Below, piece after piece: positions 14,939 to 51,024 of a DNA stretch of 64,000 nucleotides. This DNA is from Myxococcales bacterium (GTDB lineage: Bacteria > Myxococcota_A > UBA9042). The notes beneath the pieces are model-generated. The model saw only the letters and a list, made by a program, of their open reading frames with translations. It did not search any database and had not been told where the DNA came from. The stretch lies in assembly GCA_947491025.1 (NCBI GenBank), contig CANLIC010000002.1, positions 197,123-261,122 on the forward strand, read 5' to 3'. The stretch's first letter is position 1. Each line of letters opens with the position of its first letter. The translations under genes were made by a program, and so were the position numbers.

Positions 14939-15031
14939 CGACGCCTCCCGCTCCGTCGCGCAAGGTAGCAGCCTCGCTGTCGCTTCACCAGATGCGGCGC
15001 TTCGCTCTGCACGGCGTGGCTGCCCAGGGGC

Positions 15032-38653: not shown

Positions 38654-39289
38654 ATGGCTTTCCGCCGACCGCCAGAAGAAGAGCGCCCCGATGCAGCCGC
38701 CGCGCGTGCTCGCGAGCCCCGCGTCAATCACCGCATTCGGGTGCCCGAAGTCCGGCTGATCGGAGTCGATGGCGAGCAGCTCGGCATCGTGGCCACCGAG
38801 GTCGCGCTCCGGATGGCGCAGACCGATGGCGTCGATCTGGTCGAGGTCGCTCCGACGGCTCGTCCGCCGGTCTGCCGTCTGATGGACTTCGGCAAGTTTA
38901 AGTACTTGCAGAAGAAGCGTCAGCAGGAAGCCAAGCGCTCCTCGACCCACATCGAGGTCAAAGAGGTCAAGTTCCGTCCCAAGACCGAGAAGCACGACTA
39001 CGAGACGAAGATGGCGCACGCGCGCCGCTTCATCGAGCAGGGGCATCGGCTCAAGGTGACGGTGATGTTCCGCGGCCGAGAGATGGCGTTCACGGACGCT
39101 TCTCGGATCAAGCTGGAGGAGATCGCCCGGCACCTTGCAGACGTCGCCGTCATGGACGTGGCGCCCAAGGTCGAGGGCCGGACCATGAGCATGATGATGA
39201 ACCCGAAGCGCGGCGCTGGTGCGGCGCCCGTAGCCGGCGCGCCAGGCACGGGCGGCAAGTCCGCCGGTGGCAACGAGGCGGACGCGTAA
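38654..39289 (+). CDS. infC: Translation initiation factor IF-3.
   Basis: 'RIRVPEVRLIGVDGEQLGIV ... GVDLVEVAPTARPPVCRLMDFGKFKY' aligns with the E. coli IF-3 core. The true start may be a non-ATG codon near the listed start. Confidence 0.85.
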   Translation: MAFRRPPEEERPDAAAARAREPRVNHRIRVPEVRLIGVDGEQLGIVATEVALRMAQTDGVDLVEVAPTARPPVCRLMDFGKFKYLQKKRQQEAKRSSTHIEVKEVKFRPKTEKHDYETKMAHARRFIEQGHRLKVTVMFRGREMAFTDASRIKLEEIARHLADVAVMDVAPKVEGRTMSMMMNPKRGAGAAPVAGAPGTGGKSAGGNEADA

Positions 39290-39442
39290 GGTTCGAGGGA
39301 GATGCGCTGCCGCAAGGCCGCCTCCCGGGAAGGATTCGCAGCACCAGAGGGTGCGACGGCTTGAGGCGCCGACGGACGCCGACAGCATGGACAGCACCGA
39401 CGCCGACAAGCGCCGGTCGCATCGACAGAGGGTGAGGGACCG

Positions 39443-39640
39443 ATGCCAAAGATGAAGACCCGCCGCTGCGCCGCCAAGCGGCTCAAGGTGCGCCCGAGTG
39501 GCAAGATCAAGTGCAAGCACGTCAACCGGCGCCACTTGCTCGAGTGCAAGGGCCGCAAGCGCAAGCGCCAGCTGCGGGGCACGACCTCGGTCAACGCTGT
39601 CGACGTCGGGCGCTTGGCGCACTGCCTGCCCTACGGCTGA
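39443..39640 (+). CDS. rpmI: 50S ribosomal protein L35.
   Basis: 'MPKMKTRRCAAKRLKVRPSGKIK' matches the L35 N-terminal consensus. Size 65 aa. Confidence 0.9.
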   Translation: MPKMKTRRCAAKRLKVRPSGKIKCKHVNRRHLLECKGRKRKRQLRGTTSVNAVDVGRLAHCLPYG

Positions 39641-39813
39641 GCCAGCTTGCTACGGAGGCCGCGCCGGACCGCCTAGGCCCGGCATGGCCAAGCCGTTGTC
39701 AGGCTTGATGATGCTCGCGCGACGGCGCGCTGGCAGAGAAGACATGAACTAGGGTCCTGGACCCGTGGCGAGCTGAGCGGTGGAGACCGCTTGGCTCCAA
39801 GAGAGAGGGTGCG

Positions 39814-40161
39814 ATGCGTGTCAAGAAGGGCTTCAAAGGCCACCGCCGCCACAAGAAGTTCCTCAAGATGGCCAAGGGCATGCGGGGAGCGCGTTCGCGC
39901 CTGTACCGCACGGCCCGCGAGCAGGTCCTGCGTGGCCTGAAGATCGCCTACAAGGAGCGCCGCCGTAAGAAGCGTACGTTCCGCGCGCTGTGGATCGTGC
40001 GTATCAACGCCGCTGCCCGTGCGCTCGGCGTGCGCTACTCCGAGCTGGTGCACGCACTCGGCAAGGCCGAAATCAGCCTCGACCGCAAAGTTCTTGCAGA
40101 AATGGCCGTAAAGGATCTAGACGGATTCCGCGCCGTGGTGGAAGCTGCGCGCGCGGCATAG
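39814..40161 (+). CDS. rplT: 50S ribosomal protein L20.
   Basis: 'MRVKKGFKGHRRHKKFLKMAKGMRGARSRLYRTAREQV' matches the L20 consensus. Confidence 0.95.
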   Translation: MRVKKGFKGHRRHKKFLKMAKGMRGARSRLYRTAREQVLRGLKIAYKERRRKKRTFRALWIVRINAAARALGVRYSELVHALGKAEISLDRKVLAEMAVKDLDGFRAVVEAARAA

Positions 40162-40192
40162 GCCGCTGAAACCACGTCCGAGTTCAACGAGA

Positions 40193-40216
40193 GCGCGCCG
40201 GTGAGGCGCCCTTTCC
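40193..40216 (+). terminator. Weak candidate intrinsic terminator after rplT.
   Basis: Hairpin GCGCC-GGTGA-GGCGC followed by CCTTTCC. The stem is short. Confidence 0.25.
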
Positions 40217-40322
40217 GCGACCGGGAACCCTGCCCTCCACGTGGGGGCGACAGATGGCAGCTGGCGCGAGGTCGCCAGGGCCCCAATAGGACGCCGCAGT
40301 GCCCTGCGGCCAGGAGGCAGTG

Positions 40323-40601
40323 ATGACGAAGGCCGATATCGTCGATGCGGTGTACGACCGCCTGGGTGGCTACAGCAAGCGCGACGCCGCGGAGCTCGTG
40401 GAGCTCGTGTTCCAGATCCTCAAGGACACCCTCGAGAAGGGTGAGAAGGTGAAGGTGTCGGGCTTCGGCAACTTCGTCGTCCGCGAGAAGAAGTCGCGCA
40501 TGGGCCGCAATCCGCAGACCGAGAAGCCGATTGAGATCAGCGCCCGCAAGGTCCTGACCTTCAAGCCTTCGCAGGTCCTCAAGTCGCAGCTCAACGGCTA
40601 G
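40323..40601 (+). CDS. ihfA: Integration host factor subunit alpha.
   Basis: 'MTKADIVDAVYDRLG ... GFGNFVVREKKSRMGRNPQTEKPIEISARKVLTFKPS' matches the IHF/HU fold. A strong AGGAGG RBS lies 7 nt upstream of the ATG at 40323. Confidence 0.85.
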   Translation: MTKADIVDAVYDRLGGYSKRDAAELVELVFQILKDTLEKGEKVKVSGFGNFVVREKKSRMGRNPQTEKPIEISARKVLTFKPSQVLKSQLNG

Positions 40602-41019
40602 GCGCCGCTGCCTTGGCTGCCAAGGCGCTGGCCCTGGTCGCAACTGACGACCCGCCGACCGACCGTCGCCCCACCGCGAGATCCAGCCATGGATCGCGGC
40701 GCAGCGACGGCCGGTCGGTGCGTTTTTGCGGAGATGTCGCGGAGTCGCCGGCGCGGACTTGCAACCGCGCGCTGTTCGACGGACGATCGCGTTGCCGCGC
40801 CGCATAGGTGCGATGAACGGCGGCCTACGCGTCGACGTCGGTCATGGTGGCGCTTCGGCGCCGCCGCCAGCGGGCGAGACCCGAGTCGGACGTGCGCCGC
40901 CGGGCACCGAGCCGGGGTGGGCCACGGACGTTGCGCGCCGGCGGCGCATCGGGGCGCGAGCCGGAATCCAGGCGGCGCGTGGCCGGCAGTCGATGCCAGG
41001 CAGGGGGACCGAGGCTTTG

Positions 41020-41598
41020 ATGGGCGAAGCGATGACGACCGAGCCGGGGGCGGCCCAAGAGGCCAGATCTGCGACGGCACCTCCGGGCAAAGCTCGACGC
41101 AGCGCCGTGGCGGCCAAGGGCACGGACGACGCGCCGGAGCGGGCGCTGTGGCGCATCGGCGAGGTCGCCGAGAAGCTGGGCGTTCCGACCCACGTCATTC
41201 GTTTCTGGCAGACGCAGTTCCCGGCCCTGCAGCCGGCGCGGACTGGCACTGGTCGCTTCATCTACACCTCGGCGCAAGTCGACCAGCTGCTGCGCATTCG
41301 CCAGCTCCTGCACGTCGAGCGGATGACGATCGCCGGCGCCAAGCGTGCGCTGCGCTCGGGCAAGGCGCGCGTGCTGCTGGCGTCCAGCGCGGCGGCGGCG
41401 CAAGACGAGTTCGCGGCAGAGCGTCGCGAGGTCGCGGCAGCACTCGGGGAAGTCGAAGCCTCGGCGCCAGAGGCGCGAAGGGCGCCGAACCAGGCCACGC
41501 CGGCAGTGGACCCGGAACGCCTTGAGTCGCTGAGGGGCCGCGCCCAGGCGCTGCGGCGCAGCCTCGAAGCGATGCGGGTCCAGATCGAAGAGGCCTGA
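41020..41598 (+). CDS. MerR-family transcriptional regulator.
   Basis: HTH 'WRIGEVAEKLGVPTHVIRFWQTQFPALQPARTGTGRFIYTSAQVDQLLRIRQLL'. The start was trimmed from the track's 40726 to the ATG at 41020. Confidence 0.7.
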   Translation: MGEAMTTEPGAAQEARSATAPPGKARRSAVAAKGTDDAPERALWRIGEVAEKLGVPTHVIRFWQTQFPALQPARTGTGRFIYTSAQVDQLLRIRQLLHVERMTIAGAKRALRSGKARVLLASSAAAAQDEFAAERREVAAALGEVEASAPEARRAPNQATPAVDPERLESLRGRAQALRRSLEAMRVQIEEA

Positions 41599-41675: not shown

Positions 41676-42533
41676 ATGGTGCATCGCCCACTGAGCCTGC
41701 AGCAGGCCCTGGAGCTCAAGCGCGCGCTCGGCGCCCGCGGCGTGCCCGTGGCGGGCGGCACCGACCTCATCGTCGGCATCCGCAAGGGCCGCCCTGCCCC
41801 GGCCGAGATGATCGACCTGAGTTTGGTTCCTGATCTCGATGGCATCGAGCGCGTCGGCGACCAGCTGCGAGTCGGTGCCCGGGTCAGCCACGCCCGCCTT
41901 GAGGTGATGGATCTCGGCGCCCTGGCCGCGGCCTGCGAGACGGTCGGCGGCCCGCAGATCCGCAACCTCGGCACCATCGGCGGCCAGCTCGGCACGGCGT
42001 CGCCCGCTGGCGACGTCTCGGTGGCGCTGGTCGCCCTCGACGCCACGGTCGAGCTCGCGTCGGTGGACGGCCGGCGGACGCTGCCGCTCTGCGACTTCTT
42101 CGTCGGGCCAGGCCGAACCGTGCTGCGCCCCGACGAGCTGGTGCTGGCGGTGACGGTCCCGCTGAATCGGCGGTCGGCCTTCTACAAGATCGGCAAGCGC
42201 GAGGCGGTGGCGATCTCGCTGCTCATGGCGGCCGTGTCGGTCGATGCCCATGGCCACGTCGCCATCGGCATTGGCTGCGCGGCGCCTGTGCCCATGCGGG
42301 CGCGCGACGCAGAAGCGTCCCTGCGAACGCACGGCTGGAGCGCCGAGAGCATCGACGCCGCGGCGGCGCTGGTGAGCGCGGAAGTGCGCCCGATCAGCGA
42401 TCACCGGGGCAGCGCCGACTATCGGCGGGCCATGGCCGGCGCGGTGGTGCGGCGGCTCTTGACGCAGCTCTGGCGCGAGGGCGCGCCAGCCGCGTCGCGA
42501 ATCGGCGCCGACGGCGCGAGGGGGACAGCATGA
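41676..42533 (+). CDS. Xanthine-dehydrogenase-family molybdoenzyme, FAD-binding subunit (CoxM/XdhB-like).
   Basis: 'LSLQQALELKRALGARGVPVAGGTDLIVGIRKGR' matches the FAD_binding_5 domain. It shares a 4-nt overlap with the next gene. Confidence 0.85.
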   Translation: MVHRPLSLQQALELKRALGARGVPVAGGTDLIVGIRKGRPAPAEMIDLSLVPDLDGIERVGDQLRVGARVSHARLEVMDLGALAAACETVGGPQIRNLGTIGGQLGTASPAGDVSVALVALDATVELASVDGRRTLPLCDFFVGPGRTVLRPDELVLAVTVPLNRRSAFYKIGKREAVAISLLMAAVSVDAHGHVAIGIGCAAPVPMRARDAEASLRTHGWSAESIDAAAALVSAEVRPISDHRGSADYRRAMAGAVVRRLLTQLWREGAPAASRIGADGARGTA

Positions 42534-43099
42534 AGCTGGTCGAGGACAACGGCGGCGGCGACGGCGCGCAGCGGGCAGCGCCCGGCGGGACCCCCTGGCA
42601 CTGCTCGCTCAACGGCCGCGAGGTGGCCACCGCCATCGATCCGCGCGAGACGCTCTACGACACGCTGCGCGAGCGCCTGCGCCTGACCGGTACCAAGGGT
42701 GCCTGCCTCGAAGGCGAGTGCGGCAGCTGCACGGTGCTGCTCGATGGCCTGCCGGTGACGAGCTGCCTGGTGCTGACCGTGCAAGCGGACGGGCGCCAGG
42801 TGACGACGATCGAGGGCCTGGCAGACGGTCCGAACCTGTCGATCTTGCAGGATGAGTTCGTGCGCGCTGGCGCGGTGCAGTGCGGCTACTGCACGCCGGG
42901 CCTCTTGGTCGCCGCGACGGCCCTGCTGCGTGACAATCCGACGCCGACCGCCGATCAGGTGCGCCGTGGGCTCGAGGGCAACCTCTGCCGCTGCACCGGC
43001 TACATGAAGATTGTCGACGCGGTGCTGGCGGCGGCGACGCGCCAGGGCGCGGCGGCGGGCGCCAGAAGGCCGCTGTCCGCGGTGGGAGGTGGCTCGTGA
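42530..43099 (+). CDS. Xanthine-dehydrogenase-family molybdoenzyme, [2Fe-2S] subunit (CoxS-like).
   Basis: 'CLEGECGSCTVLLDG' and 'CGYCTPG ... CRCTGY' give the two 2Fe-2S cluster motifs. Confidence 0.9.
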   Translation: MKLVEDNGGGDGAQRAAPGGTPWHCSLNGREVATAIDPRETLYDTLRERLRLTGTKGACLEGECGSCTVLLDGLPVTSCLVLTVQADGRQVTTIEGLADGPNLSILQDEFVRAGAVQCGYCTPGLLVAATALLRDNPTPTADQVRRGLEGNLCRCTGYMKIVDAVLAAATRQGAAAGARRPLSAVGGGS

Positions 43100-45417
43100 A
43101 CGCGCCAGTGAGGCCGCCACATGCCATCGGCCGCTCCGTGCTGCGCGCCGACGTGCGCGACAAGGTGACGGGCGAGGCGCGCTACGGCGGCGATTTGCGG
43201 GGGCCGGAGACGCTGAGCGCCGCGGTGGTCCGCAGCCCGCACCCGCACGCCCGGATCCTCGGCGTCGACGCCGCCGCCGCGCGCGCCCTGCCCGGGGTGG
43301 TGGCGGTTTTCGGCCGCGACGACATCGATGGCACCAACCGTCATGGCCTGATCAAGCGCGACCATCCGGTGTTCTGCGACGAGGTGGCGCGCTACCTCGG
43401 CGACGCTGTCGCGCTGGTGGTGGCGACCTCGCCGGAGGCCGCCGAGCACGCCTGCAAAGCCGTACGCGTCGACTACGAGGCGCTGCCGGTGCTCGGGAGC
43501 ATGGACGAGGCCATGGCGCCAGGCGCGCCCGCGATCTTCCCGACCGGCAACGTGCTGAGCCAACAGCTGATCCGCAAGGGCGACGCCGACGCGGCGCTTG
43601 CGACGGCCGACGCGATCGTGCGCTGCCGCTTCAAGATGCGCGGCGTCGACCACGCCTTCCTCGACGTAGAGGCTGGCTACGCCGAGCCCGAGGGCGACGG
43701 TGTCGTCATCTGCGCGAGCGGACAGTGGATCCACGAGGAGCGGCGGCTGGTCGCGCTGGCCATCGGCATCCCTGTCGAGCGGGTCCGCATCGTCCAGCCT
43801 GCGACTGGCGGCGCATTCGGCGGTCGCGAGGACATCTCAATTCAGATCTACCTCGGCCTCGCCGCGCTCAAGCTCGGCCAGCCCGTGCGCATCCAGTACA
43901 CGCGCGAAGAGTCGATGGTTGCGCGCCACAAGCGCCACCCCATCGAGGTCGACTACACGCTCGGCGCCAAGGCCGACGGCACCTTTGTCGCCGCCAAGGT
44001 CATGATTCGCTCGGACGAAGGGGCCTACGCCTCGACCGGACCGGCGGTGCTCCGCAAGGCGGTGAGCCACTGCACGGGGCCTTACCGCGTGCCCAACATC
44101 CACTGCGATGGCGTGGCGATCTTCACCAACACCTGCCCAACCGGGGCGATGCGGGGCTTTGGCGCCTGCCAGCTGGCCATCGCCTACGAGGGTGCGGTCG
44201 AGGCGATGGCGCGCGAGCTCGGCATCGACGTGGTGACCCTCAAACGCAAGAACCTGCTGCAGGACGGCGATCGACTGACCACCAACCAGGTCGTCAACGT
44301 GGCGAGCGGCGGCGAGGTCCTCGAGGCCGCGCTGACGAAGTTCGGCTGGGAGTCGCGCTCCCGCAGCGCGCCGGCGCCGCATTTGAGGCGCGGCTTTGGT
44401 GTCAGCAGCATCTGCTTCGGCCTCGGCTACGGCGACGGCTACCCCGATCGCTCGTTTGCGCGGGTCCGGATCGCCGAAGATGGGGTCGTCGAAGTGCTCT
44501 CGTCCGGCGTCGACGTCGGTCAGGGCCTGCACGGTCTGCTCGGCCAAATTGCCGCCGAGGTGCTCGGCGTCGAGCCCGGGGACGTGCGCGTCATCGGCCA
44601 CGACACCGGCACCACGCCCGAGTCTGGCTCGTCCTCGGCGACGCGGCAGACGGTGTTCACCGGCAATGCGGTCAAGCTCGCCGCCTCCGAGGTGCATCGG
44701 CAGCTCATGGACGCCGCCGCCATCACCCTCGGCCTGCATTGGGACGACCTCGTGATGGCCGATGGCTGCGTCGTCAGCGCCCACGGCCCAGAGGTGAAAT
44801 TGCCGCTGGCCTTCGTGGTGCGGGCGGCGCGCGAGCGGGGCTATGCGCTCGATCATACGGCGCTCTACCAGCCGCGCACGGTTCCGGGCGGAGCGTCCGA
44901 CGGTCTCTCGCCGCGGGCGTTCTTGACCTACATGTTCGGCAGCCACGTCGCCGAGGTGCTGGTCGACATCGAGACCGGTGAGGTAAAGGTCCAGCGCATC
45001 GTCGCCGCCCACGACGTCGGGATGGCGATCAACCCACGCGAGGTGGCCGGCCAGATCGAGGGCGGCGTAGCGCAAGGGCTCGGCATGGCGCTCATGGAGG
45101 AGATCGTCACCCGCGAGGGCAAGATCCTCAACGCGAGCTTCACCGACTACATCATTCCGACGATCGTCGATGTGCCGCCGATCGAGGCCGTCATCGTCGA
45201 GCGACCCGACATCGAGGGTCCCTTTGGCGCCCGCGGCGTCGGCGAGCCGCCCCTGATCGGGACGGTGCCGGCGATCCTGGCCGCGATCGCAGACGCCATC
45301 GGCCTGCCGGTCCGCGAGACGCCGGCGACCTCCGAGCGAGTCTGGCGGCTGTTGCAGACCTCTCCGGCCTGGAACGAGGCGCCGCAGTCCGAACCGGCAA
45401 GCGCCGGTCAGCGCTGA
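43096..45417 (+). CDS. Xanthine-dehydrogenase-family molybdoenzyme, molybdopterin-binding large subunit (CoxL/aldehyde-oxidase-like).
   Basis: At 773 aa it has the a/b hammerhead and Moco-binding domain layout ('GGAFGGRE', 'GQGLHG'). A 4-nt overlap links it to the FeS subunit. Confidence 0.9.
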   Translation: MNAPVRPPHAIGRSVLRADVRDKVTGEARYGGDLRGPETLSAAVVRSPHPHARILGVDAAAARALPGVVAVFGRDDIDGTNRHGLIKRDHPVFCDEVARYLGDAVALVVATSPEAAEHACKAVRVDYEALPVLGSMDEAMAPGAPAIFPTGNVLSQQLIRKGDADAALATADAIVRCRFKMRGVDHAFLDVEAGYAEPEGDGVVICASGQWIHEERRLVALAIGIPVERVRIVQPATGGAFGGREDISIQIYLGLAALKLGQPVRIQYTREESMVARHKRHPIEVDYTLGAKADGTFVAAKVMIRSDEGAYASTGPAVLRKAVSHCTGPYRVPNIHCDGVAIFTNTCPTGAMRGFGACQLAIAYEGAVEAMARELGIDVVTLKRKNLLQDGDRLTTNQVVNVASGGEVLEAALTKFGWESRSRSAPAPHLRRGFGVSSICFGLGYGDGYPDRSFARVRIAEDGVVEVLSSGVDVGQGLHGLLGQIAAEVLGVEPGDVRVIGHDTGTTPESGSSSATRQTVFTGNAVKLAASEVHRQLMDAAAITLGLHWDDLVMADGCVVSAHGPEVKLPLAFVVRAARERGYALDHTALYQPRTVPGGASDGLSPRAFLTYMFGSHVAEVLVDIETGEVKVQRIVAAHDVGMAINPREVAGQIEGGVAQGLGMALMEEIVTREGKILNASFTDYIIPTIVDVPPIEAVIVERPDIEGPFGARGVGEPPLIGTVPAILAAIADAIGLPVRETPATSERVWRLLQTSPAWNEAPQSEPASAGQR

Positions 45418-45418
45418 G

Positions 45419-45844
45419 GTGGCGCTCGCGTTCGCGCTGACGCTGCTCGTCGGCCTCGCCATCGTCGTCCAGGGCGGGATCAACGCCCGCCTCGGCCAGC
45501 AACACAGCCTGTGGCTGCTGGTGACCATCGGCAACGCCGTGGCGGCGCTGGGCTCCGGGGCGGCATGGCTCTGGCTGCGCCGCAGCGGCCCGATGGTGGC
45601 GGAGCTGCAGCGGGTGCCCTGGCTGGTTTTGGTGCCGAGCGTGGCGGGCATCGCGATCGTGGCCGGGATGCCGGCAGCGATCGCGCGGGTCGGCGTCGGC
45701 CGGGCCGTGGTCCTTGTCATCGCGGTGCAGCTGGTCGCAGGGTTGCTCTGGGATCGCTTCGGTGTCGGCGGGGCCTTGAGCGCCCAGCGGCTCGCCGGCG
45801 CGGCGCTGGTCATGCTCGGGAGCTGGCTCGTCGTGCGCGGCTGA
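45419..45844 (+). CDS. Small DMT-superfamily membrane protein (YdcZ/DUF606-like), 4 TM.
   Basis: Of 141 aa, almost all are hydrophobic helices. It starts 2 nt after the molybdoenzyme large-subunit stop. Confidence 0.5.
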   Translation: MALAFALTLLVGLAIVVQGGINARLGQQHSLWLLVTIGNAVAALGSGAAWLWLRRSGPMVAELQRVPWLVLVPSVAGIAIVAGMPAAIARVGVGRAVVLVIAVQLVAGLLWDRFGVGGALSAQRLAGAALVMLGSWLVVRG

Positions 45845-46035: not shown

Positions 46036-46995
46036 ATGACGCAGGTCACCTTCGATCTCCAAGCCACGGCGGCCGCAGAGGCGCCAGAGGACGAGCTGAC
46101 CGCTCGCCGCGCCCAGGAACTTTGCGCGCACCTGCTGATTCACCGCTGGCTGCCCAAGCGCAGCACCCGCGACCTGATGATCGACGACGGCTTGCGCCGC
46201 AGCGTCGATCGCCGCTTGGCGGGCGTCGGCCTTCAGCTCATCGATTCGTACACCTCCAACTACTTCGCGGTACGCCTGCTGCCGGCGATCGAGGGCGACG
46301 TCCGCTTTGACTGGTCGACCAACGCCCGACTGCCGCGCGGCGCGGTGGCGCTGCTGGTCATCCTGTGGACGCGCCTGGTGCTGCCACGGCGGGTCGCCAG
46401 CGATGAGGCCCGACGCGCGCGCGACGATGCGCAGCAGCGCGCCATCCAGCGCGGCGAAGATCCGGCGCTCGCCGATGCGGCGCAGGTGCAGGGCGACCGG
46501 CTGCCCGCGCCCACCGTCGCCCGGACCGCGCTCTACGCGGAGTTCGGGCACCGCTTCGGCAAGATCGCGTTTGCCAGGTACCTCTCGCAGCTCAAGAGCG
46601 CCGGCCTCGTGCTCGAGAATCGGGCCGGCCTGCTGCGCGAGGGGCCCCTGCTCGACGTGCTGGTCGACGGCGTCACGATGGCGCGCAAGCTGCGCGACTC
46701 GGTGCTCTGGGACCTGCTGGAGCGCGACGGCGGCGCGGCGCATGAGCCCGAGATCCCGGGCCTGACTCCAACGGCCGCCCCTGCGGCACCTGCCGGCAGC
46801 GCCTTCGCGGTGGCCGCCACAGGAGGGGCTTCGAGCGACGCATTGGGCGCCGCCGCGGGCGCCTCAAGGAGCGAAGCCGGCAGCGCCGCGGCGTCCGACG
46901 CCGACGACGCGCCGCCAGCAGACGGCGAAGCGCAAGCCCAAGCCGAACTCGAGGCCATCGACGATGACTTTGACGACTGGGCGGACGACGCCTAG
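46036..46995 (+). CDS. Hypothetical protein with two winged-helix-like segments and a strongly acidic C-terminal tail; possible KITE-like (MksE/MukE/ScpB-like) partner of the downstream SMC-family ATPase.
   Basis: Start at the ATG at 46036, since the track's GTG at 45982 adds an Arg/His-rich leader. wHTH-like segments 'FARYLSQLKSAGLVLENRAGLLREGPLLDVL' and 'ELCAHLLIHRWLPKRSTRDLMIDDGLRRSVDRRLAGVGLQLID'. The tail '...EAQAQAELEAIDDDFDDWADDA' is acidic. Its stop lies 23 nt before the ATPase gene. Confidence 0.5.
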   Translation: MTQVTFDLQATAAAEAPEDELTARRAQELCAHLLIHRWLPKRSTRDLMIDDGLRRSVDRRLAGVGLQLIDSYTSNYFAVRLLPAIEGDVRFDWSTNARLPRGAVALLVILWTRLVLPRRVASDEARRARDDAQQRAIQRGEDPALADAAQVQGDRLPAPTVARTALYAEFGHRFGKIAFARYLSQLKSAGLVLENRAGLLREGPLLDVLVDGVTMARKLRDSVLWDLLERDGGAAHEPEIPGLTPTAAPAAPAGSAFAVAATGGASSDALGAAAGASRSEAGSAAASDADDAPPADGEAQAQAELEAIDDDFDDWADDA

Positions 46996-47018
46996 GGCGC
47001 CAAGGAGTAGGCCGATTC

Positions 47019-49859
47019 ATGTTTACGTTCAAGGCCATCGAGCTGCTGAACTGGGACTGGTGGGCGCACATCCGCCTGCCGCTCGACGACGACGTCGTGC
47101 TGGTCGCCGGCCCCAACGGCTCGGGCAAGACGACGTTCCTCGACGCCTTGCGGGTGCTGCTCAACGCCACGCGCCTGTCGACCTCGCGCAAGCTGCCGCA
47201 ATACCTGCGCGAAGACACCGGCGTCGCCGTCGTCAAGGCCGTCGTCGACAACCGCCACCGCCGCGCCGTCGGCCGCCGGCCCTTCGCCCACCTCGGCCTC
47301 TTCGGCGACGAGGCGACGCTGGCCTGCGTCATGGAACGGCGCGCCGGGGCCTGGGAGCGCAAGTACCTGATCTTGGATGGCGATCCGCCCATCGACGCTG
47401 TCCGCACGGCGACGCCGGCTTGGAAGCCGATGGAGTTCTCGCGCGAGCTCGAGGCCGCCGGTGTGCCGCGGACGCTGCTGCGCATCCTCGCCCTCGAACA
47501 GGGCGAGACGCACAAGCTCGCCGAACGCAGCCCCGAGCAACTGCTGGAGTATGTGCTGGAGATGCAGGGCGACAAGGCCGCCCTGGAGCGCTACGACGAG
47601 GCGCGCAGCAGCTACTTGCAGAGCCAGCGCGATCTCTCCGACTTTGAAGAGAAGCTTGGCACGGTGCGGCTGCACGTCGACGGCCTACGCAAGGACGCTG
47701 AGGCCTATCAGCGCTACACGGAGCTGGTCGAGGCCGAGCGTGAAGTGCGCGAGGAGCGGCTGCCAGCGGCCCGCTGCGCCGCGCTGCGCCTGCAAGTCCA
47801 GGCCGCGCAAGAGGATGTCGACCGCGCGCGCCGCTCTGCCGCCGAGGCGGATGGCGTACTCGGCAGCTTCGACCGCGAGAGCGCCGAGCTCAAAGCGGCC
47901 GCCGCCGACATCCGCCACGAGGTCGAGCGCCGCAAGGGCTTGTACCAGCAGCTGATCTCCGCCAAGGAGCGCCTCGACGGCGAGGCGCGCGACCTGCGCC
48001 GCTGGGCGACCGAGGTGGCCGAGACCGGCGCTGCACGCGGCGACGTCGACGTCGTGGCGCTCACCGCGGAGCGCGAGCGGCTGCTCGAGTCCGAGGCGGC
48101 GCTGCGGGCCGAGCTCAACGGCCTCATCGGCCAGATCAACCGGCTACGCGGCGAACGCGAGACCCTCGACAGCGGAAGCCAGCGGCCGCCGCCGGACTGG
48201 GTCGAGCGCATGCAACGCGAGCTGCGCAGCCGCGACATCGCCGCCGTGCTGGTCGCCGACACCATCGAGATCGCCGACGAGCACTGGCACGTCGCCGTCG
48301 AGTCGGTGCTCGGCCGCGAACGCTTCACCATCCTGGTCGACTCCAAGGACACGGCCGCTGCGCGCAAGATCGCGCAGCAGCAGCGCTACCGTTGCTACAT
48401 CTCCGACCTGCAACGCGGCAGCGGCAAGCCGACGACGGTGCGCTCGCGGCCCGGCTCGGCGCTGTCGGTGGTGCGCCTGCGCGATGACCGCGTACCTGAA
48501 GCGATTTTGCGCATCCTCGACAGTGTGCAGCTGGTCGAGAGCGTCGACGACGGCCTCAAGCTCGGCCGCGGCGAGACCAGCATCACGCCCGACGGTTACC
48601 GCCAGGACGCCCGCGGCGGCATCTACGTCGGCCAGACCGAGCTCTATTGCGGCGCCGGCGCTGGCAGCCACCGCAAGGGCCGCATCGACGACGAGCTCGC
48701 CGAGCTGCGCGGTCGCCGCGACACCCTGCAGCGCAGCTTGGAGCCCTCGCAGCAGCGGTTGCGCGGCATCGATGAGGCGCTGGCGGCGGCCAAGGCCCGC
48801 GAGCGCTTGCTGGGCCGCGCCGGCGACATCGACACGCTGCAGGCCCGCATCGACGCCCTCGACGCCGAGCGGCGGGCGGCGAGCGAGCGTCTGATGGCCG
48901 TGCTGCAGGAGGTCGACGACCACAACCGCGAGCTGGTCGCCAAGGAGCGCCGGCTCTCTCTGCTCGAGTACCGCCACCGCGAGGCCCAGATCGAGCGCGA
49001 TCGCGGCCGGGTGTCGATGGCCGGCGCCGAGAGCCGCCGCGACCGCCTGCAGATCGACCTGCAGGACGCCGAGGCGCGGGTGCCCGAGCGCCTGCGCCAC
49101 CCGGCGGCGATGGCGCTGCTCGAGCCGGAGGTTGTGCTCATCGAGCGCCAGGCCGCGCTCCGGCAGCGGATGGCCGCTTGGACCGGCCCGCGCGACGGCC
49201 GCGCCGTAGCCCTCTGGCAGCGCGCGCACTCCGAGCTGGTCGAGTCCGAGCGCTCGATGGCCCTGCGCCGGCGCGAGCTCGACGCCAGCACAGAGGAGCT
49301 CGCGCTCGCCCGCCGCGCCTATGTCCGCGTCGTCGAAGAGACCATTCGGCGCTACCGCCGCAACGTGCTGCGCCTGGGCGAGCTCTGTCGCGTCGACGTC
49401 AAGGTGGCGGTGCCGGGCGCCGAGGCGCTGCGCGGCGACGCCGAGGGCCTGGTTGGCCGTGTCGGGCTAGAGGTCAAGGTCGGCTTTGACGGCAAGCGAC
49501 CGGTGGCGGTGCATGACCCCGAGCTCTCGGGCGGCCAGCGGGTGGTGTCGTCGCTGATCCTGCTGATGGCGCTGACGATGAGCGATGAGGGTGATACGGC
49601 GGGCTTTTTCATCCTCGATGAGCCCTTCGCCCACCTCTCGGTCGAGCGCATCGACGAGGTGGCGCGCTTTCTGCTGGTGACGCGGGCGCAGTTCCTCATC
49701 ACCACGCCGACCACGCACAACCTCCTGGTCTACAACCCGGCCGGTCTGACGCTGAATCTGCGCAAGAAGCCGGCGCAGCAGCGTTTTGCGCCGGTGCCGA
49801 CCTTCCTGCGCCGCGAACGCGAGCTGCCGACCGCGGCGGGCCCCGCGGCGCCGACCTAG
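47019..49859 (+). CDS. MukB/MksB-like SMC-family ATPase (946 aa).
   Basis: The N-terminal head 'FKAIELLNWDWWAHIRLPLDDDVVLVAGPNGSGKTTFLDAL' parallels MukB '[38 protein letters not shown]'. About 600 aa of heptad-rich coiled coil follow. The C-terminal head 'LSGGQRVVSSLILLMALT ... FFILDEPFAHLSVERI ... QFLITTPT' parallels MukB 'LSTGEAIGTGMSILVMVV ... LLFLDEAARLDARSI ... QLIIAAPE'. An AAGGAG RBS lies 8 nt upstream. Confidence 0.8.
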   Translation: MFTFKAIELLNWDWWAHIRLPLDDDVVLVAGPNGSGKTTFLDALRVLLNATRLSTSRKLPQYLREDTGVAVVKAVVDNRHRRAVGRRPFAHLGLFGDEATLACVMERRAGAWERKYLILDGDPPIDAVRTATPAWKPMEFSRELEAAGVPRTLLRILALEQGETHKLAERSPEQLLEYVLEMQGDKAALERYDEARSSYLQSQRDLSDFEEKLGTVRLHVDGLRKDAEAYQRYTELVEAEREVREERLPAARCAALRLQVQAAQEDVDRARRSAAEADGVLGSFDRESAELKAAAADIRHEVERRKGLYQQLISAKERLDGEARDLRRWATEVAETGAARGDVDVVALTAERERLLESEAALRAELNGLIGQINRLRGERETLDSGSQRPPPDWVERMQRELRSRDIAAVLVADTIEIADEHWHVAVESVLGRERFTILVDSKDTAAARKIAQQQRYRCYISDLQRGSGKPTTVRSRPGSALSVVRLRDDRVPEAILRILDSVQLVESVDDGLKLGRGETSITPDGYRQDARGGIYVGQTELYCGAGAGSHRKGRIDDELAELRGRRDTLQRSLEPSQQRLRGIDEALAAAKARERLLGRAGDIDTLQARIDALDAERRAASERLMAVLQEVDDHNRELVAKERRLSLLEYRHREAQIERDRGRVSMAGAESRRDRLQIDLQDAEARVPERLRHPAAMALLEPEVVLIERQAALRQRMAAWTGPRDGRAVALWQRAHSELVESERSMALRRRELDASTEELALARRAYVRVVEETIRRYRRNVLRLGELCRVDVKVAVPGAEALRGDAEGLVGRVGLEVKVGFDGKRPVAVHDPELSGGQRVVSSLILLMALTMSDEGDTAGFFILDEPFAHLSVERIDEVARFLLVTRAQFLITTPTTHNLLVYNPAGLTLNLRKKPAQQRFAPVPTFLRRERELPTAAGPAAPT

Positions 49860-49989: not shown

Positions 49990-51024
49990 ATGGTTTGGGG
50001 ACCCACCAACCGGCCGCAGCCGGGACAGCAACAGCAAGGCCCGCAGACCGGCCCCCACGCCCCCGGCGGCGGTGGACCGGCGCAAACGCCCCAGGCCCCG
50101 GCGGCTCCCGGCGGCGGCGCGCTGAGCAATCCGCTCTTCTCGGGCGATCACGTCCTGGAGCAAGTCGCCAAGGGCAACGGCACCTTGCGCAAGGGCAGCC
50201 GTGGCCCCGCCGTGCGCGCTCTACAGACCTACCTGAGCAGCGTAGGCCTCGGCTCGATGCTCGGCCGCGCTGGCCCGGACGGCGACTATGGCACCGGCAC
50301 CGTGAACGCGGTCAAGGCGTGGCAGAAGGCCAAGGGCCTCGGCGACGACGGCGTGGTCGGCGCCGACACCCTGGCGCGCATGGACAAAGACACCGCGCAG
50401 GTACAGGCGCCGCAGCCGACGACCCAGAACGCCGCCAACACGTCGGCGCCGAGCGCCGGCGCGCCGGGCAGCCGCAACGGCGGGTTGCCGGCCGACTTCC
50501 AGAAGATGTGGGACGCCCACCCGCACAACTACCTGGCAGACAGCAGCCAGAACATCGACAGCGCCAAGCTGCAAGAGCAGCAGGGCTGGAGTCCCGACCA
50601 GTACTCCAACACCTGCGCCATTCGCCTCTCGATCATGTGGAACCAGCTCGGCGGCGGGTATCGGCTCACGCCAGAGAAGGCCAAGGCCGCCGGCCTCGAT
50701 CCGGGCCGCTTGCCCTACTCGCGCAAGACCGGCTGGTACTACATCCTCTCGGCCAAAGAGATGTGGATGTACATGGAGAAGCACATGGGCAAGCCGCATG
50801 CCCAGTGGCCGGCGAACGGCAAGCGCTTCAAGGACGGGGCCGCGTTCGACGAGGAGTTCCGCTCCAAGATCGAGCCCGAGATCGCCGGCCGCAAGGGCGT
50901 CGTGGCCTTCGACAAGATCTTCGGCTACTCGGGCACCGGCCACGTCGACATCTTCAACGGCACGCAGCTGTCCGACGCCGCGAGCTGGTACCCCTGCCAG
51001 TCGCTCAAGGTCTGGTACATCTAG
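49990..51024 (+). CDS. Peptidoglycan-binding domain (PG_binding_1) fused to a Tae4-family (papain-like Cys/His) gamma-D-glutamyl-mDAP amidase domain; no signal peptide.
   Basis: PG_binding_1: 'LRKGSRGPAVRALQTYLSSVGL ... DGDYGTGTVNAVKAWQKAKGLGDDGVVGADTLARM'. Tae4-like catalytic motifs 'NTCAIRLSIMWN' (compare Tae4 'NACPIRMSYVLN') and 'GTGHVDIFNGT' (compare 'RGHVTLWNGS'). The N-terminus 'MVWGPTNRPQPGQQQQGPQTGP...' is Gln/Pro/Gly-rich and low complexity. Start trimmed to the ATG at 49990. Confidence 0.75.
   Translation: MVWGPTNRPQPGQQQQGPQTGPHAPGGGGPAQTPQAPAAPGGGALSNPLFSGDHVLEQVAKGNGTLRKGSRGPAVRALQTYLSSVGLGSMLGRAGPDGDYGTGTVNAVKAWQKAKGLGDDGVVGADTLARMDKDTAQVQAPQPTTQNAANTSAPSAGAPGSRNGGLPADFQKMWDAHPHNYLADSSQNIDSAKLQEQQGWSPDQYSNTCAIRLSIMWNQLGGGYRLTPEKAKAAGLDPGRLPYSRKTGWYYILSAKEMWMYMEKHMGKPHAQWPANGKRFKDGAAFDEEFRSKIEPEIAGRKGVVAFDKIFGYSGTGHVDIFNGTQLSDAASWYPCQSLKVWYI

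What the first reader, a model, noticed from the sequence alone, without database searches (positions are those of the whole stretch)
46036..49859. Two-gene SMC-family module (KITE-like acidic-tail protein plus MukB/MksB-like ATPase) with no kleisin, second KITE protein or nuclease
The 946-aa ATPase has the MukB/MksB-type head architecture. Its N-terminal 'LLNWDWW...AGPNGSGKTT' and C-terminal 'LSGGQR...ILDEP...LITTPT' are split by about 600 aa of coiled coil. It is several hundred residues shorter than canonical MukB/MksB/JetC. In all described Muk/Mks/Wadjet systems the ATPase works with a kleisin (MukF/MksF/JetA) and a KITE dimer (MukE/MksE/JetB), and defence variants add a Toprim nuclease (MksG/JetD). 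Here the only partner is a 319-aa protein with two winged-helix-like segments and a poly-acidic tail (DDDFDDWADDA), reminiscent of SSB/MukF-type interaction tails. It is tightly coupled (23-nt gap, strong RBS), and no kleisin or nuclease is encoded anywhere in the 64 kb. The pair sits as an insertion between a molybdoenzyme operon and fumarase. It may be a minimal, previously undescribed condensin-like or anti-plasmid/anti-phage SMC system, or a divergent fusion in which the small protein combines kleisin and KITE functions.
Basis: partly seen in the sequence, partly recalled or inferred. Interest (0 to 1): 0.8.

Follow-up and report, generated by a model that had tools for sequence, protein, structure and literature searches.

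The report
Condensin-like gene pair, third partner elsewhere
These two genes encode two of the three subunits of a DNA-organising SMC machine descended from the Wadjet anti-plasmid family; it has lost its DNA-cutting enzyme, and in related genomes of this group of Myxococcota the third subunit is encoded elsewhere, so the pair is not a new "minimal" system.

Summary
Both ORFs are real: A is 319 aa (46036-46995) and B is 946 aa (47019-49859), with a 23-nt gap and an AAGGAG RBS. B is a short-armed SMC ATPase with intact ATPase motifs and a central SMC-type hinge. A is a KITE protein; its closest whole-protein structural match is JetB.

The 64 kb holds no kleisin or JetD. However, relatives show the pair is two-thirds of a MukBEF-like/Wadjet-group complex:
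- Distant relatives are F-E-B-G operons with a Pfam-confirmed JetD nuclease.
- Closer relatives are F-E-B without a nuclease.
- The window's clade has only E-B.

In that clade, a roughly 460-aa MukF/JetA-like kleisin gene sits at an unlinked locus. It was found alone in 29 species-representative Myxococcota MAGs. Two MAGs carry F and E/B on different contigs under the same locus-tag prefix. The F and B trees are congruent.

The pair is not an insertion. It occupies a conserved core-genome site downstream of infC-rpmI-rplT-HU-merR, and the molybdoenzyme operon is what was inserted.

The nuclease-free lineage also replaced the C-terminal winged-helix domain of its KITE subunit with an acidic tail.

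Verdict: a new variant of a known kind. The kleisin-less "minimal SMC" reading is not supported. F in the window's own genome is inferred, not shown.

The parts
46036..46995 (+). Gene A: the KITE subunit (MksE/JetB-like), 319 aa. The structured core is aa 20-232 (nt 46093-46731) and forms two tandem winged-helix domains. Aa 233-319 (nt 46732-46992) is a disordered Ala-rich linker ending in the acidic tail DDDFDDWADDA.
46996..47018 (+). 23-nt intergenic spacer with the ribosome-binding site AAGGAG (47002-47007), 11 nt before the ATG of B. A and B are therefore read as one operon.
   Evidence: Sequence read directly. E and B are adjacent on the same strand in every locus that carries both.
47019..49859 (+). 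Gene B: a short-armed SMC ATPase (MksB/JetC-like), 946 aa. Features: Walker A aa 31-38 (nt 47109-47132); Q-loop aa 160-162; hinge aa 412-515 (nt 48252-48563); signature LSGGQ aa 836-840 (nt 49524-49538); Walker B FFILDE aa 863-868 (nt 49605-49622); H-loop aa 899-901.
   Evidence: Pfam SMC_N 55 bits, AAA_29, AAA_23, SMC_hinge 37 bits. PADLOC JetC1 104 bits. Profile against PDB: Smc3 94 bits, JetC 64 bits. Motif positions. The ATPase motif residues are invariant across 18 homologues down to 28% identity. Homologues are 922-968 aa.
38654..41598 (+). Conserved upstream synteny block: infC (38654-39289), rpmI (39443-39640), rplT (39814-40161), HU/IHF-type gene (40299-40601) and a merR-family regulator (41020-41598). 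In relatives L001 and L004 this block directly precedes E-B.
   Evidence: Pfam on the window ORFs. The same order with E-B about 100 nt after merR in L001 and L004. The window organism's own contig L012 shows the same.
41676..45844 (+). A lineage-specific insertion between merR and gene A: a coxM/S/L-like molybdoenzyme operon (41676-45417) plus ydcZ (45419-45844). It is not part of the SMC system; it is listed because it explains the apparent context.
   Evidence: Pfam. Absent from this position in L001 and L004. Present in L012-L015.

Best explanation
Genes A and B encode the KITE subunit (MksE/JetB-like) and the SMC ATPase (MksB/JetC-like) of a nuclease-free member of the MukBEF-like/Wadjet group. 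In this Myxococcota clade the third subunit, a MukF/JetA-type kleisin of about 460 aa, has been moved to an unlinked chromosomal locus.

Inferred mechanism, by homology with MukBEF and JetABC: B dimerises through its hinge. The kleisin bridges the neck and cap of the B heads. A dimers sit on the kleisin. ATP binding and hydrolysis by B drive DNA entrapment and loop extrusion. With no JetD nuclease, the output is DNA organisation, not cleavage.

The pair sits at a conserved core-genome site next to infC-rpmI-rplT-HU and has been inherited vertically. Together these point to a domesticated chromosome-maintenance role, like MksBEF of Pseudomonas aeruginosa or MukBEF, not a mobile defence island.

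Shown: subunit identities, the operon series, the unlinked kleisin in clade genomes, and the synteny. Inferred: complex assembly, loop extrusion, the housekeeping role, and the presence of F in this particular genome.
For: Identity of B:
- SMC_N, AAA_29 and SMC_hinge match above Pfam cut-offs, and PADLOC JetC1 scores 104 bits.
- All ATPase motifs are invariant across the family.

Identity of A:
- Distant orthologues weakly hit DUF4194 and MksE.

A graded series of relatives, classified with local HMMs:
- E 33-38% identical to A: all 14 distinct loci with enough downstream sequence carry a fourth gene, G. Twelve are F-E-B-G and two are cut upstream of E. Seven of seven G proteins tested hit Pfam JetD_C/DUF2399 above the gathering score.
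- E 39-48% identical, plus L059 (52.6%), Aquabacterium (34%) and Ca. Uabimicrobium (30%): F-E-B without G in 11 distinct loci.
- E at least 52% identical: E-B only, in all 9-10 distinct loci with at least 1.3 kb upstream. The one exception at that identity level is L059, which groups outside the E-B clade in both trees.

F is a kleisin:
- The top seven Foldseek PDB hits are all JetA or MukF. JetA 9qe0_E has E 8e-4 and probability 0.95; MukF 9gm7_C has probability 0.97.

F is unlinked in the clade:
- 29 of 32 F loci in GTDB species-representative genomes have no E or B nearby. All are Myxococcota-type MAGs, and 25 of the 29 have at least 3 kb downstream.
- MAG FJ100 has F (03955, 60-kb contig) and E+B (05875, 49-kb contig) on different contigs. 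DCQ06 has F 03360 and B 13975.

Co-evolution: neighbour-joining trees of B and F share a topology. The split clade is monophyletic, sister to L059/(L006, L060), and has two matching subclades.

Core-genome context:
- YaeQ-sdhBA-mdh-...-infC-rpmI-rplT-HU-merR-E-B is shared between the window and L004.
- No relative of A was found on 72,556 plasmids or in IMG/VR.

Literature:
- Nuclease-free Wadjet-group members are recognised (PMC7617805).
Against: - No F gene was found for the window's own genome.
- JetD could, like F, be encoded at a distant locus. This could not be searched. It is absent from all E-B loci and from the 10-kb flanks of all 29 orphan F genes.
- The direction of change (loss of G versus gain) rests on midpoint rooting plus the published tree, in which a nuclease-free Lentisphaeria FEB operon nests among FEBG operons.
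- No experimental data exist for any member.
- A itself fails every curated family threshold.
- The trees are simple neighbour-joining trees without support values.
Confidence: 0.8

Rival explanations
1. It is still a Wadjet-type anti-plasmid defence system. The JetD/MksG nuclease, like the kleisin, is encoded at another locus, and the complex cleaves small circular DNA after loop extrusion.
For: The nearest nuclease-bearing relatives are true F-E-B-G operons. The kleisin shows that subunits of this system can be unlinked. JetD elsewhere in these genomes could not be searched.
Against: No G hit lies within 10 kb of any E-B locus or of any of the 29 orphan F loci. The contiguous F-E-B relatives in four phyla also lack G, even with 4-8 kb of downstream sequence. 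The KITE C-terminal wHTH domain, present wherever JetD was seen, has been replaced in the whole G-minus lineage. The locus sits in a vertically inherited housekeeping neighbourhood, and no relatives were found on plasmids or phages.
Confidence: 0.12
2. One reading: a genuinely minimal two-protein SMC system without a kleisin. A either contacts the B heads directly through its winged helices or acidic tail, or combines the kleisin and KITE roles.
For: No kleisin lies in 64 kb. F could not be shown for this exact genome. The long tail of A (aa 233-319) is specific to the window's subclade.
Against: Orphan F genes are conserved at 49-100% identity to the query F across the 29 species of the same clade, and they co-evolve with B. 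Two MAGs demonstrably carry both F and E/B. The core of A is the same length as in three-gene systems and has no kleisin-like domains. Acidic tails also occur on E proteins that have an adjacent F. The tail of the nearest clade members is only about 15 aa.
Confidence: 0.05
3. A decaying remnant of a Wadjet operon that lost its kleisin and nuclease and no longer functions.
For: Two of the four ancestral genes are missing from the locus.
Against: Both ORFs are intact with high GC3. All ATPase motifs are invariant. A has 34 invariant columns across 37 sequences. The pair is kept at the same syntenic site across lineages in which B identity falls to 56%.
Confidence: 0.02

Closest known systems
Wadjet (JetABCD / MksBEFG / EptABCD), specifically the short-MksB lineage (MksB about 905-960 aa) in Data S1 of the Wadjet-group census in PMC7617805. 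Examples: Janthinobacterium sp. Marseille, Desulfuromonas acetoxidans and Azoarcus sp., all FEBG.
   Same: Homologous SMC ATPase of the same unusual length. Homologous KITE subunit. Homologous MukF/JetA-fold kleisin. Same F-E-B gene order in relatives. Family HMMs for A, B and F directly recover JetD-containing operons.
   Different: No JetD/MksG nuclease. The kleisin gene is unlinked. The KITE subunit lacks the C-terminal third wHTH domain and carries an acidic tail instead. The context is core-genome, not a defence island. That the metagenomic FEBG relatives found here belong to that published clade is inferred from MksB length and from the Lentisphaeria entry; it was not tested with sequences.
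Nuclease-free MksBEF (for example in Pseudomonas aeruginosa), and the nuclease-free FEB operons of the Wadjet-group census. One of these is Lentisphaeria bacterium GCA_022969115.1, whose 930-aa MksB is MCJ8330090.1.
   Same: Three-subunit SMC-kleisin-KITE complex without a nuclease. [quoted passage not shown] Chromosome-organisation role proposed. The Lentisphaeria entry probably belongs to the same family as B: P0142 is also 930 aa, from a Lentisphaeria MAG, and 33% identical to B.
   Different: Here the operon is split into E-B plus a distant F. The census pipeline required consecutive F, E and B hits, so this arrangement would not be recorded. Identity with MCJ8330090.1 was not verified. 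There is no experimental link to P. aeruginosa MksBEF.
MukBEF (Escherichia coli)
   Same: Same subunit logic. F has the MukF fold. No nuclease, chromosomal, vertically inherited. Regarded as a Wadjet-group member that became a housekeeping condensin (PMC7617805).
   Different: From general knowledge, MukB is about 1,486 aa with much longer arms, and mukF-mukE-mukB are contiguous. Pfam MukB N-terminal scores 14 bits against a 23-bit cut-off.
Smc-ScpAB
   Different: TIGR02168 scores 80 bits against a 567-bit cut-off. The arms are about one third shorter. The partner kleisin has the MukF/JetA fold, not the ScpA fold.

Membership tests
MukBEF-like / Wadjet group of SMC complexes (Mks) | SMC-type ATPase: split ABC head (Walker A, Q-loop, signature, Walker B, H-loop), two antiparallel coiled-coil arms and a central hinge. 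| tested here: met
   all motifs present and invariant; hinge at aa 412-515. PADLOC JetC1 104 bits. JetC 8dk2_C 64 bits by profile.
MukBEF-like / Wadjet group of SMC complexes (Mks) | KITE subunit (MukE/MksE/JetB: tandem winged helices) encoded next to the ATPase. | tested here: met
MukBEF-like / Wadjet group of SMC complexes (Mks) | MukF/MksF/JetA-type kleisin encoded in the same operon. | tested here: not met
   Absent from the window. A homologous kleisin is adjacent in outgroups and unlinked in genomes of the clade. Whether this genome has one could not be tested.
MukBEF-like / Wadjet group of SMC complexes (Mks) | Sequence homology of all subunits to bona fide members. | tested here: met
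   HMMs of A, B and F hit F-E-B-G operons whose G passes Pfam JetD_C.
Wadjet defence system sensu stricto (JetABCD) | JetD/MksG Toprim nuclease (Pfam JetD_C PF09983 / DUF2399). | tested here: not met
   No G hit in the window, in any E-B locus or near any orphan F. The Pfam sweep of the window found a Toprim domain only in GyrB. A copy elsewhere in the genome could not be searched.
Wadjet defence system sensu stricto (JetABCD) | Restriction of circular plasmids. | not testable with these tools
   Requires transformation assays.
Pfam DUF4194 (PF13835) / MksE (PF21980) | Score above the curated gathering threshold. | tested here: not met
   A has no hit at E up to 1. Distant orthologues score 16.7-21.4 bits against 32.7, and 17.8 bits against 27 for MksE. 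Membership rests on fold and operon homology, not on the Pfam models.
Smc-ScpAB | TIGR02168/TIGR02169 equivalog score, with ScpA and ScpB partners. | tested here: not met
   80 bits against 567, and 32 bits against 729. The partners have the JetB and MukF/JetA folds.
MukBEF sensu stricto | MukB N-terminal domain PF04310 above cut-off, with a MukB of about 1,480 aa. | tested here: not met
   14.4 bits against 23; B is 946 aa.
Lamassu (LmuB) / Rad50-SbcC / RecN | Family-specific profile match; no hinge (zinc hook or short coiled coil); characteristic partners. | tested here: not met
   LmuB 52 bits, well below JetC1. Rad50 and RecF models fall far below their cut-offs. An SMC hinge is present. 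The partner is a KITE protein.

The most novel reading that the evidence does not exclude
A Wadjet-type plasmid-defence complex was domesticated step by step in one traceable lineage. First it lost the JetD nuclease, and the third winged-helix domain of its KITE subunit was replaced by an acidic tail. Then, in a freshwater and soil Myxococcota clade, it became a fixed core-genome condensin next to infC-rpmI-rplT-HU, with its kleisin gene moved to a separate locus. This would be an independent replay of the proposed origin of MukBEF and MksBEF from a defence system, with the intermediate stages still living. It would also be the first SMC-kleisin-KITE complex known to keep working with its operon split.
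Probability: 0.4. Interest if true: 0.6.

Novelty: new variant of a known kind. Interest (0 to 1): 0.4.

Why it matters
How defence SMC complexes (Wadjet) relate to housekeeping condensins (MukBEF, MksBEF) is an open question. Reviews propose that loss of JetD turned one into the other.

This lineage offers a graded series within about 30-60% sequence identity: F-E-B-G, then F-E-B, then E-B with a distant F. A domain swap in the KITE subunit tracks presence or absence of the nuclease. The molecular changes that accompany the switch could therefore be tested by comparison and reconstitution.

There is also a practical point. Operon-based censuses and defence-system finders that require contiguous F, E and B genes will miss or mislabel these loci. 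Automated annotation currently calls the proteins "hypothetical" and "AAA family ATPase".

The finding does not reveal a new kind of kleisin-free SMC machine.

Tried and rejected
- A as a ScpA-like kleisin (my first idea, from its two WH-like segments). Rejected: the fold matches JetB, Nse1 and ScpB, which are KITE proteins, and a separate kleisin family exists.
- A-B as a laterally acquired island. Rejected on synteny, on composition (one search shows no GC anomaly) and on the absence of relatives from plasmid and viral collections.
- Finding F in the window. tblastn and HMM searches found nothing.
- Finding the F of the window's own organism. I looked up large-contig F proteins (P0217, P0220, P0213, P0218) and listed cluster members. 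None came from the window's assemblies, and no accession numbers were returned.
- Synteny between orphan-F loci and the window, in case F lay just outside it. None was found.
- A conserved partner next to orphan F. The contexts differ: CoA-transferase/NamZ, era-der-recN, mevalonate genes.
- Profile search of A against PDB sequences. No hits.
- The afdb50 fold library was unavailable.
- The sigma-70 promoter and intrinsic terminator scan found nothing around the pair. This is uninformative in a 72% GC myxobacterial genome.
- A 393-aa ORF after an IS1071-truncated B homologue on Variovorax plasmids is not similar to this lineage's JetD.
- Verifying that census entry MCJ8330090.1 equals P0142. 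The sequence is not in the stored part of the supplement.

Full report
**1. The observation**

The window has about 70-73% GC around the finding, with no compositional break. Two same-strand ORFs are present as described. A runs 46036-46995 (319 aa) and B runs 47019-49859 (946 aa). Their third-position GC is 0.85 and 0.91. Homologues of A begin at the same MTQ, so the ATG at 46036 is the start. The gap is 23 nt and contains AAGGAG at 47002-47007.

B carries these motifs:
- Walker A at aa 31
- Q-loop at aa 160
- LSGGQ at aa 836
- Walker B FFILDE at aa 863
- H-loop at aa 899

All are invariant across 18 homologues down to 28% identity.

The middle of B is not one long coiled coil. Pfam SMC_hinge matches aa 412-515 at 37 bits against a 22.5-bit cut-off, leaving two arms of roughly 200-220 aa.

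**2. What the two proteins are**

B matches SMC_N, AAA_29 and AAA_23 above threshold. It scores 104 bits on a PADLOC JetC1 model. It falls far below the curated cut-offs for Smc (80 against 567 bits), Rad50, RecF and the MukB N-terminal domain. A family profile hits cohesin Smc3 at 94 bits and JetC at 64 bits among solved structures.

A has no hit in Pfam, NCBIfam, PADLOC or PDB sequences. It does have 69 homologous clusters, all "hypothetical" proteins from Myxococcales or Deltaproteobacteria MAGs. They share a conserved core of about 215 aa and a variable tail.

**3. The missing partner exists**

Gene neighbourhoods of relatives changed the picture. More distant homologues of B all have three co-directional, often overlapping genes:
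- an unannotated protein of 453-475 aa (F)
- an A homologue (E, 251-314 aa)
- B (928-953 aa)

These come from Aquabacterium commune, Candidatus Uabimicrobium, an unnamed MAG and a divergent Myxococcales MAG.

F is absent from the window by tblastn and by HMM.

A profile search with F returned 41 clusters. Two of them are decisive:
- FJ100_03955 is F on a 60-kb contig. The same MAG's FJ100_05875 is the A homologue P0033, with B, on a 49-kb contig.
- DCQ06_03360 is F, and DCQ06_13975 is B.

Scanning one genome per GTDB species with the F alignment gave 32 loci, all Myxococcota-type MAGs. By local HMMs, 29 carry F alone and only three carry F-E-B. Of the 29, 25 have at least 3 kb of downstream sequence.

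**4. A graded series**

A metagenome scan with the A alignment gave 60 more loci. I classified all loci with HMMs for F, E, B and G.

| Identity of E to A | Architecture | Informative distinct loci |
|---|---|---|
| at least 52% (B at least 52%) | E-B only, no F upstream | all 9-10 with at least 1.3 kb upstream |
| 39-48%, plus L059 (52.6%), Aquabacterium (34%) and Uabimicrobium (30%) | F-E-B, no fourth gene | 11 |
| 33-38% | F-E-B-G | 14 of 14 (12 with F seen; two cut upstream of E) |

L059 is F-E-B despite 52.6% E identity. In both trees it groups with the F-E-B loci L006 and L060, outside the E-B clade.

Seven of seven G proteins tested pass Pfam JetD_C (PF09983) and DUF2399. The family is therefore anchored to bona fide Wadjet systems with an unusually short JetC.

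In a midpoint-rooted neighbour-joining tree of B, the E-B-only loci form one clade. That clade nests inside the nuclease-free F-E-B group and is sister to L059/(L006, L060). The tree of F, orphans included, has the same topology, down to two matching subclades. The unlinked kleisin has therefore kept co-evolving with the ATPase.

**5. Context**

The pair is not an insertion. On the window organism's own longer contig, and in the window itself, the order is infC-rpmI-rplT-HU-merR-[coxMSL-ydcZ]-A-B. In L001 and L004, E-B follows merR directly.

The window also shares the further upstream block YaeQ-sdhB-sdhA-mdh with L004. gyrB lies 37 kb upstream.

A has no relative on 72,556 plasmids or in IMG/VR. 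B hits only an IS1071-truncated gene on Variovorax plasmids. This is a vertically inherited core-genome locus.

**6. A correlated domain change**

- All 24 distinct E proteins of the nuclease-free lineage end in an acidic tail, with net charge -4 to -15 over the last 30 residues.
- 33 of 35 E proteins of the JetD lineage instead carry a further 55-85 aa with a winged-helix signature (G[ED]R...RY...). All 16 whose JetD gene was seen are among them. That segment hits MarR_2, HTH_IclR and MksE models weakly.

It does not replace the kleisin. Its function is unknown. A DNA-mimicking or self-inhibitory contact with the head DNA-binding surface is a speculation.

**7. Mechanism**

By homology with MukBEF and JetABC (PMC7617805, PMC10586767), B should dimerise at the hinge. 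F should bridge neck and cap and dimerise through its N-terminal winged helix. A dimers should bind the F linker. ATP turnover should drive DNA entrapment and loop extrusion.

Without JetD no cleavage is expected. Together with the core-genome position, this favours a chromosome-organising role. All of this is inference; nothing here tests activity.

The main rival is that JetD, like F, is encoded elsewhere. I could not search for it genome-wide. It is absent from every E-B locus and from the flanks of all orphan F genes.

**8. Comparison with the literature**

The Wadjet-group census in PMC7617805 lists nuclease-free FEB operons and a clade of short MksB proteins of 905-960 aa. Most of these are FEBG, for example in Janthinobacterium, Desulfuromonas and Azoarcus. 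The clade also includes one Lentisphaeria FEB operon with a 930-aa MksB. That entry is probably the same family as B homologue P0142, but I could not verify this.

The census pipeline required consecutive F, E and B hits, so the split arrangement would not appear in it. Full-text searches found no description of this clade, of an unlinked mksF, or of the KITE tail swap.

**9. Verdict**

The exciting reading, a kleisin-less minimal SMC, is not supported. This is a nuclease-free, split-operon variant of the Mks/Wadjet group.

The remaining uncertainties:
- F has not been seen for this exact genome.
- JetD elsewhere in the genome is not excluded.
- The housekeeping role is inferred.

Noticed in passing
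window 41676-45844: The coxM/S/L-like molybdoenzyme operon plus ydcZ lies between merR and gene A in this organism (L012-L015). It is absent from that position in relatives L001 and L004, so it is a lineage-specific insertion into an otherwise conserved gene order.
   Followed up: partly
window 49990-51024 (+): Directly after B lies a 344-aa protein combining a peptidoglycan-binding domain (PG_binding_1) with a Tae4-type T6SS amidase effector domain. No obvious immunity gene or T6SS genes lie nearby.
   Followed up: no
E proteins of loci L081-L121 compared with L001-L080 and window 46732-46992: The KITE subunit's C-terminus switches between an extra winged-helix domain (lineage with JetD) and an acidic disordered tail (lineage without JetD). 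There are almost no exceptions. L093 lacks the wHTH motif and is acidic at its C-terminus; L084 lacks the motif but its C-terminus is near neutral (net -2); the downstream sequence is missing for both.
   Followed up: partly
L017/L018 6246-9392: In one group of MAGs the orphan kleisin gene sits 42 nt downstream of a 570-aa RecN-like SMC_N/AAA_23 gene, in an era-der-recN-F-pyrD arrangement. Other orphan F genes have different neighbours, so this is probably coincidental.
   Followed up: partly
L046, L049, L058 (record titles): Three MAG records titled "uncultured Enterobacteriaceae bacterium" or "Klebsiella pneumoniae" carry Myxococcota-type F genes (65-68% identical to the query F) on 59-68% GC contigs. 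The taxonomic labels of these records look wrong.
   Followed up: no
window 5987-8758 (+): gyrB lies about 37 kb upstream of the pair, and the region is rich in housekeeping genes (sdhAB, mdh, infC, rpmI, rplT). The locus may be near the replication origin, but no dnaA, dnaN or oriC was looked for.
   Followed up: no
window 12191-15031 (-): A 946-aa ORF, by coincidence the same length as B. It is not an SMC protein: it contains Dictyostelium-type CTDC repeats and an InhA-like MAM domain. Weak paralogues sit next to orphan F genes in L040-L043 and L047.
   Followed up: no
L122 (Variovorax sp. RA8 plasmid 2, 175832-187151): The only plasmid-borne relatives of B are C-terminal halves truncated by an IS1071 transposase. 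Each is followed by a 393-aa hypothetical gene that does not match this lineage's JetD HMM.
   Followed up: partly
window against L012: The window differs from the 290-kb ENA contig of the same organism at 506 of 20,960 compared positions, while A and B are identical in protein sequence. The window therefore comes from a closely related strain or a different assembly. Indels were not separated from substitutions.
   Followed up: no
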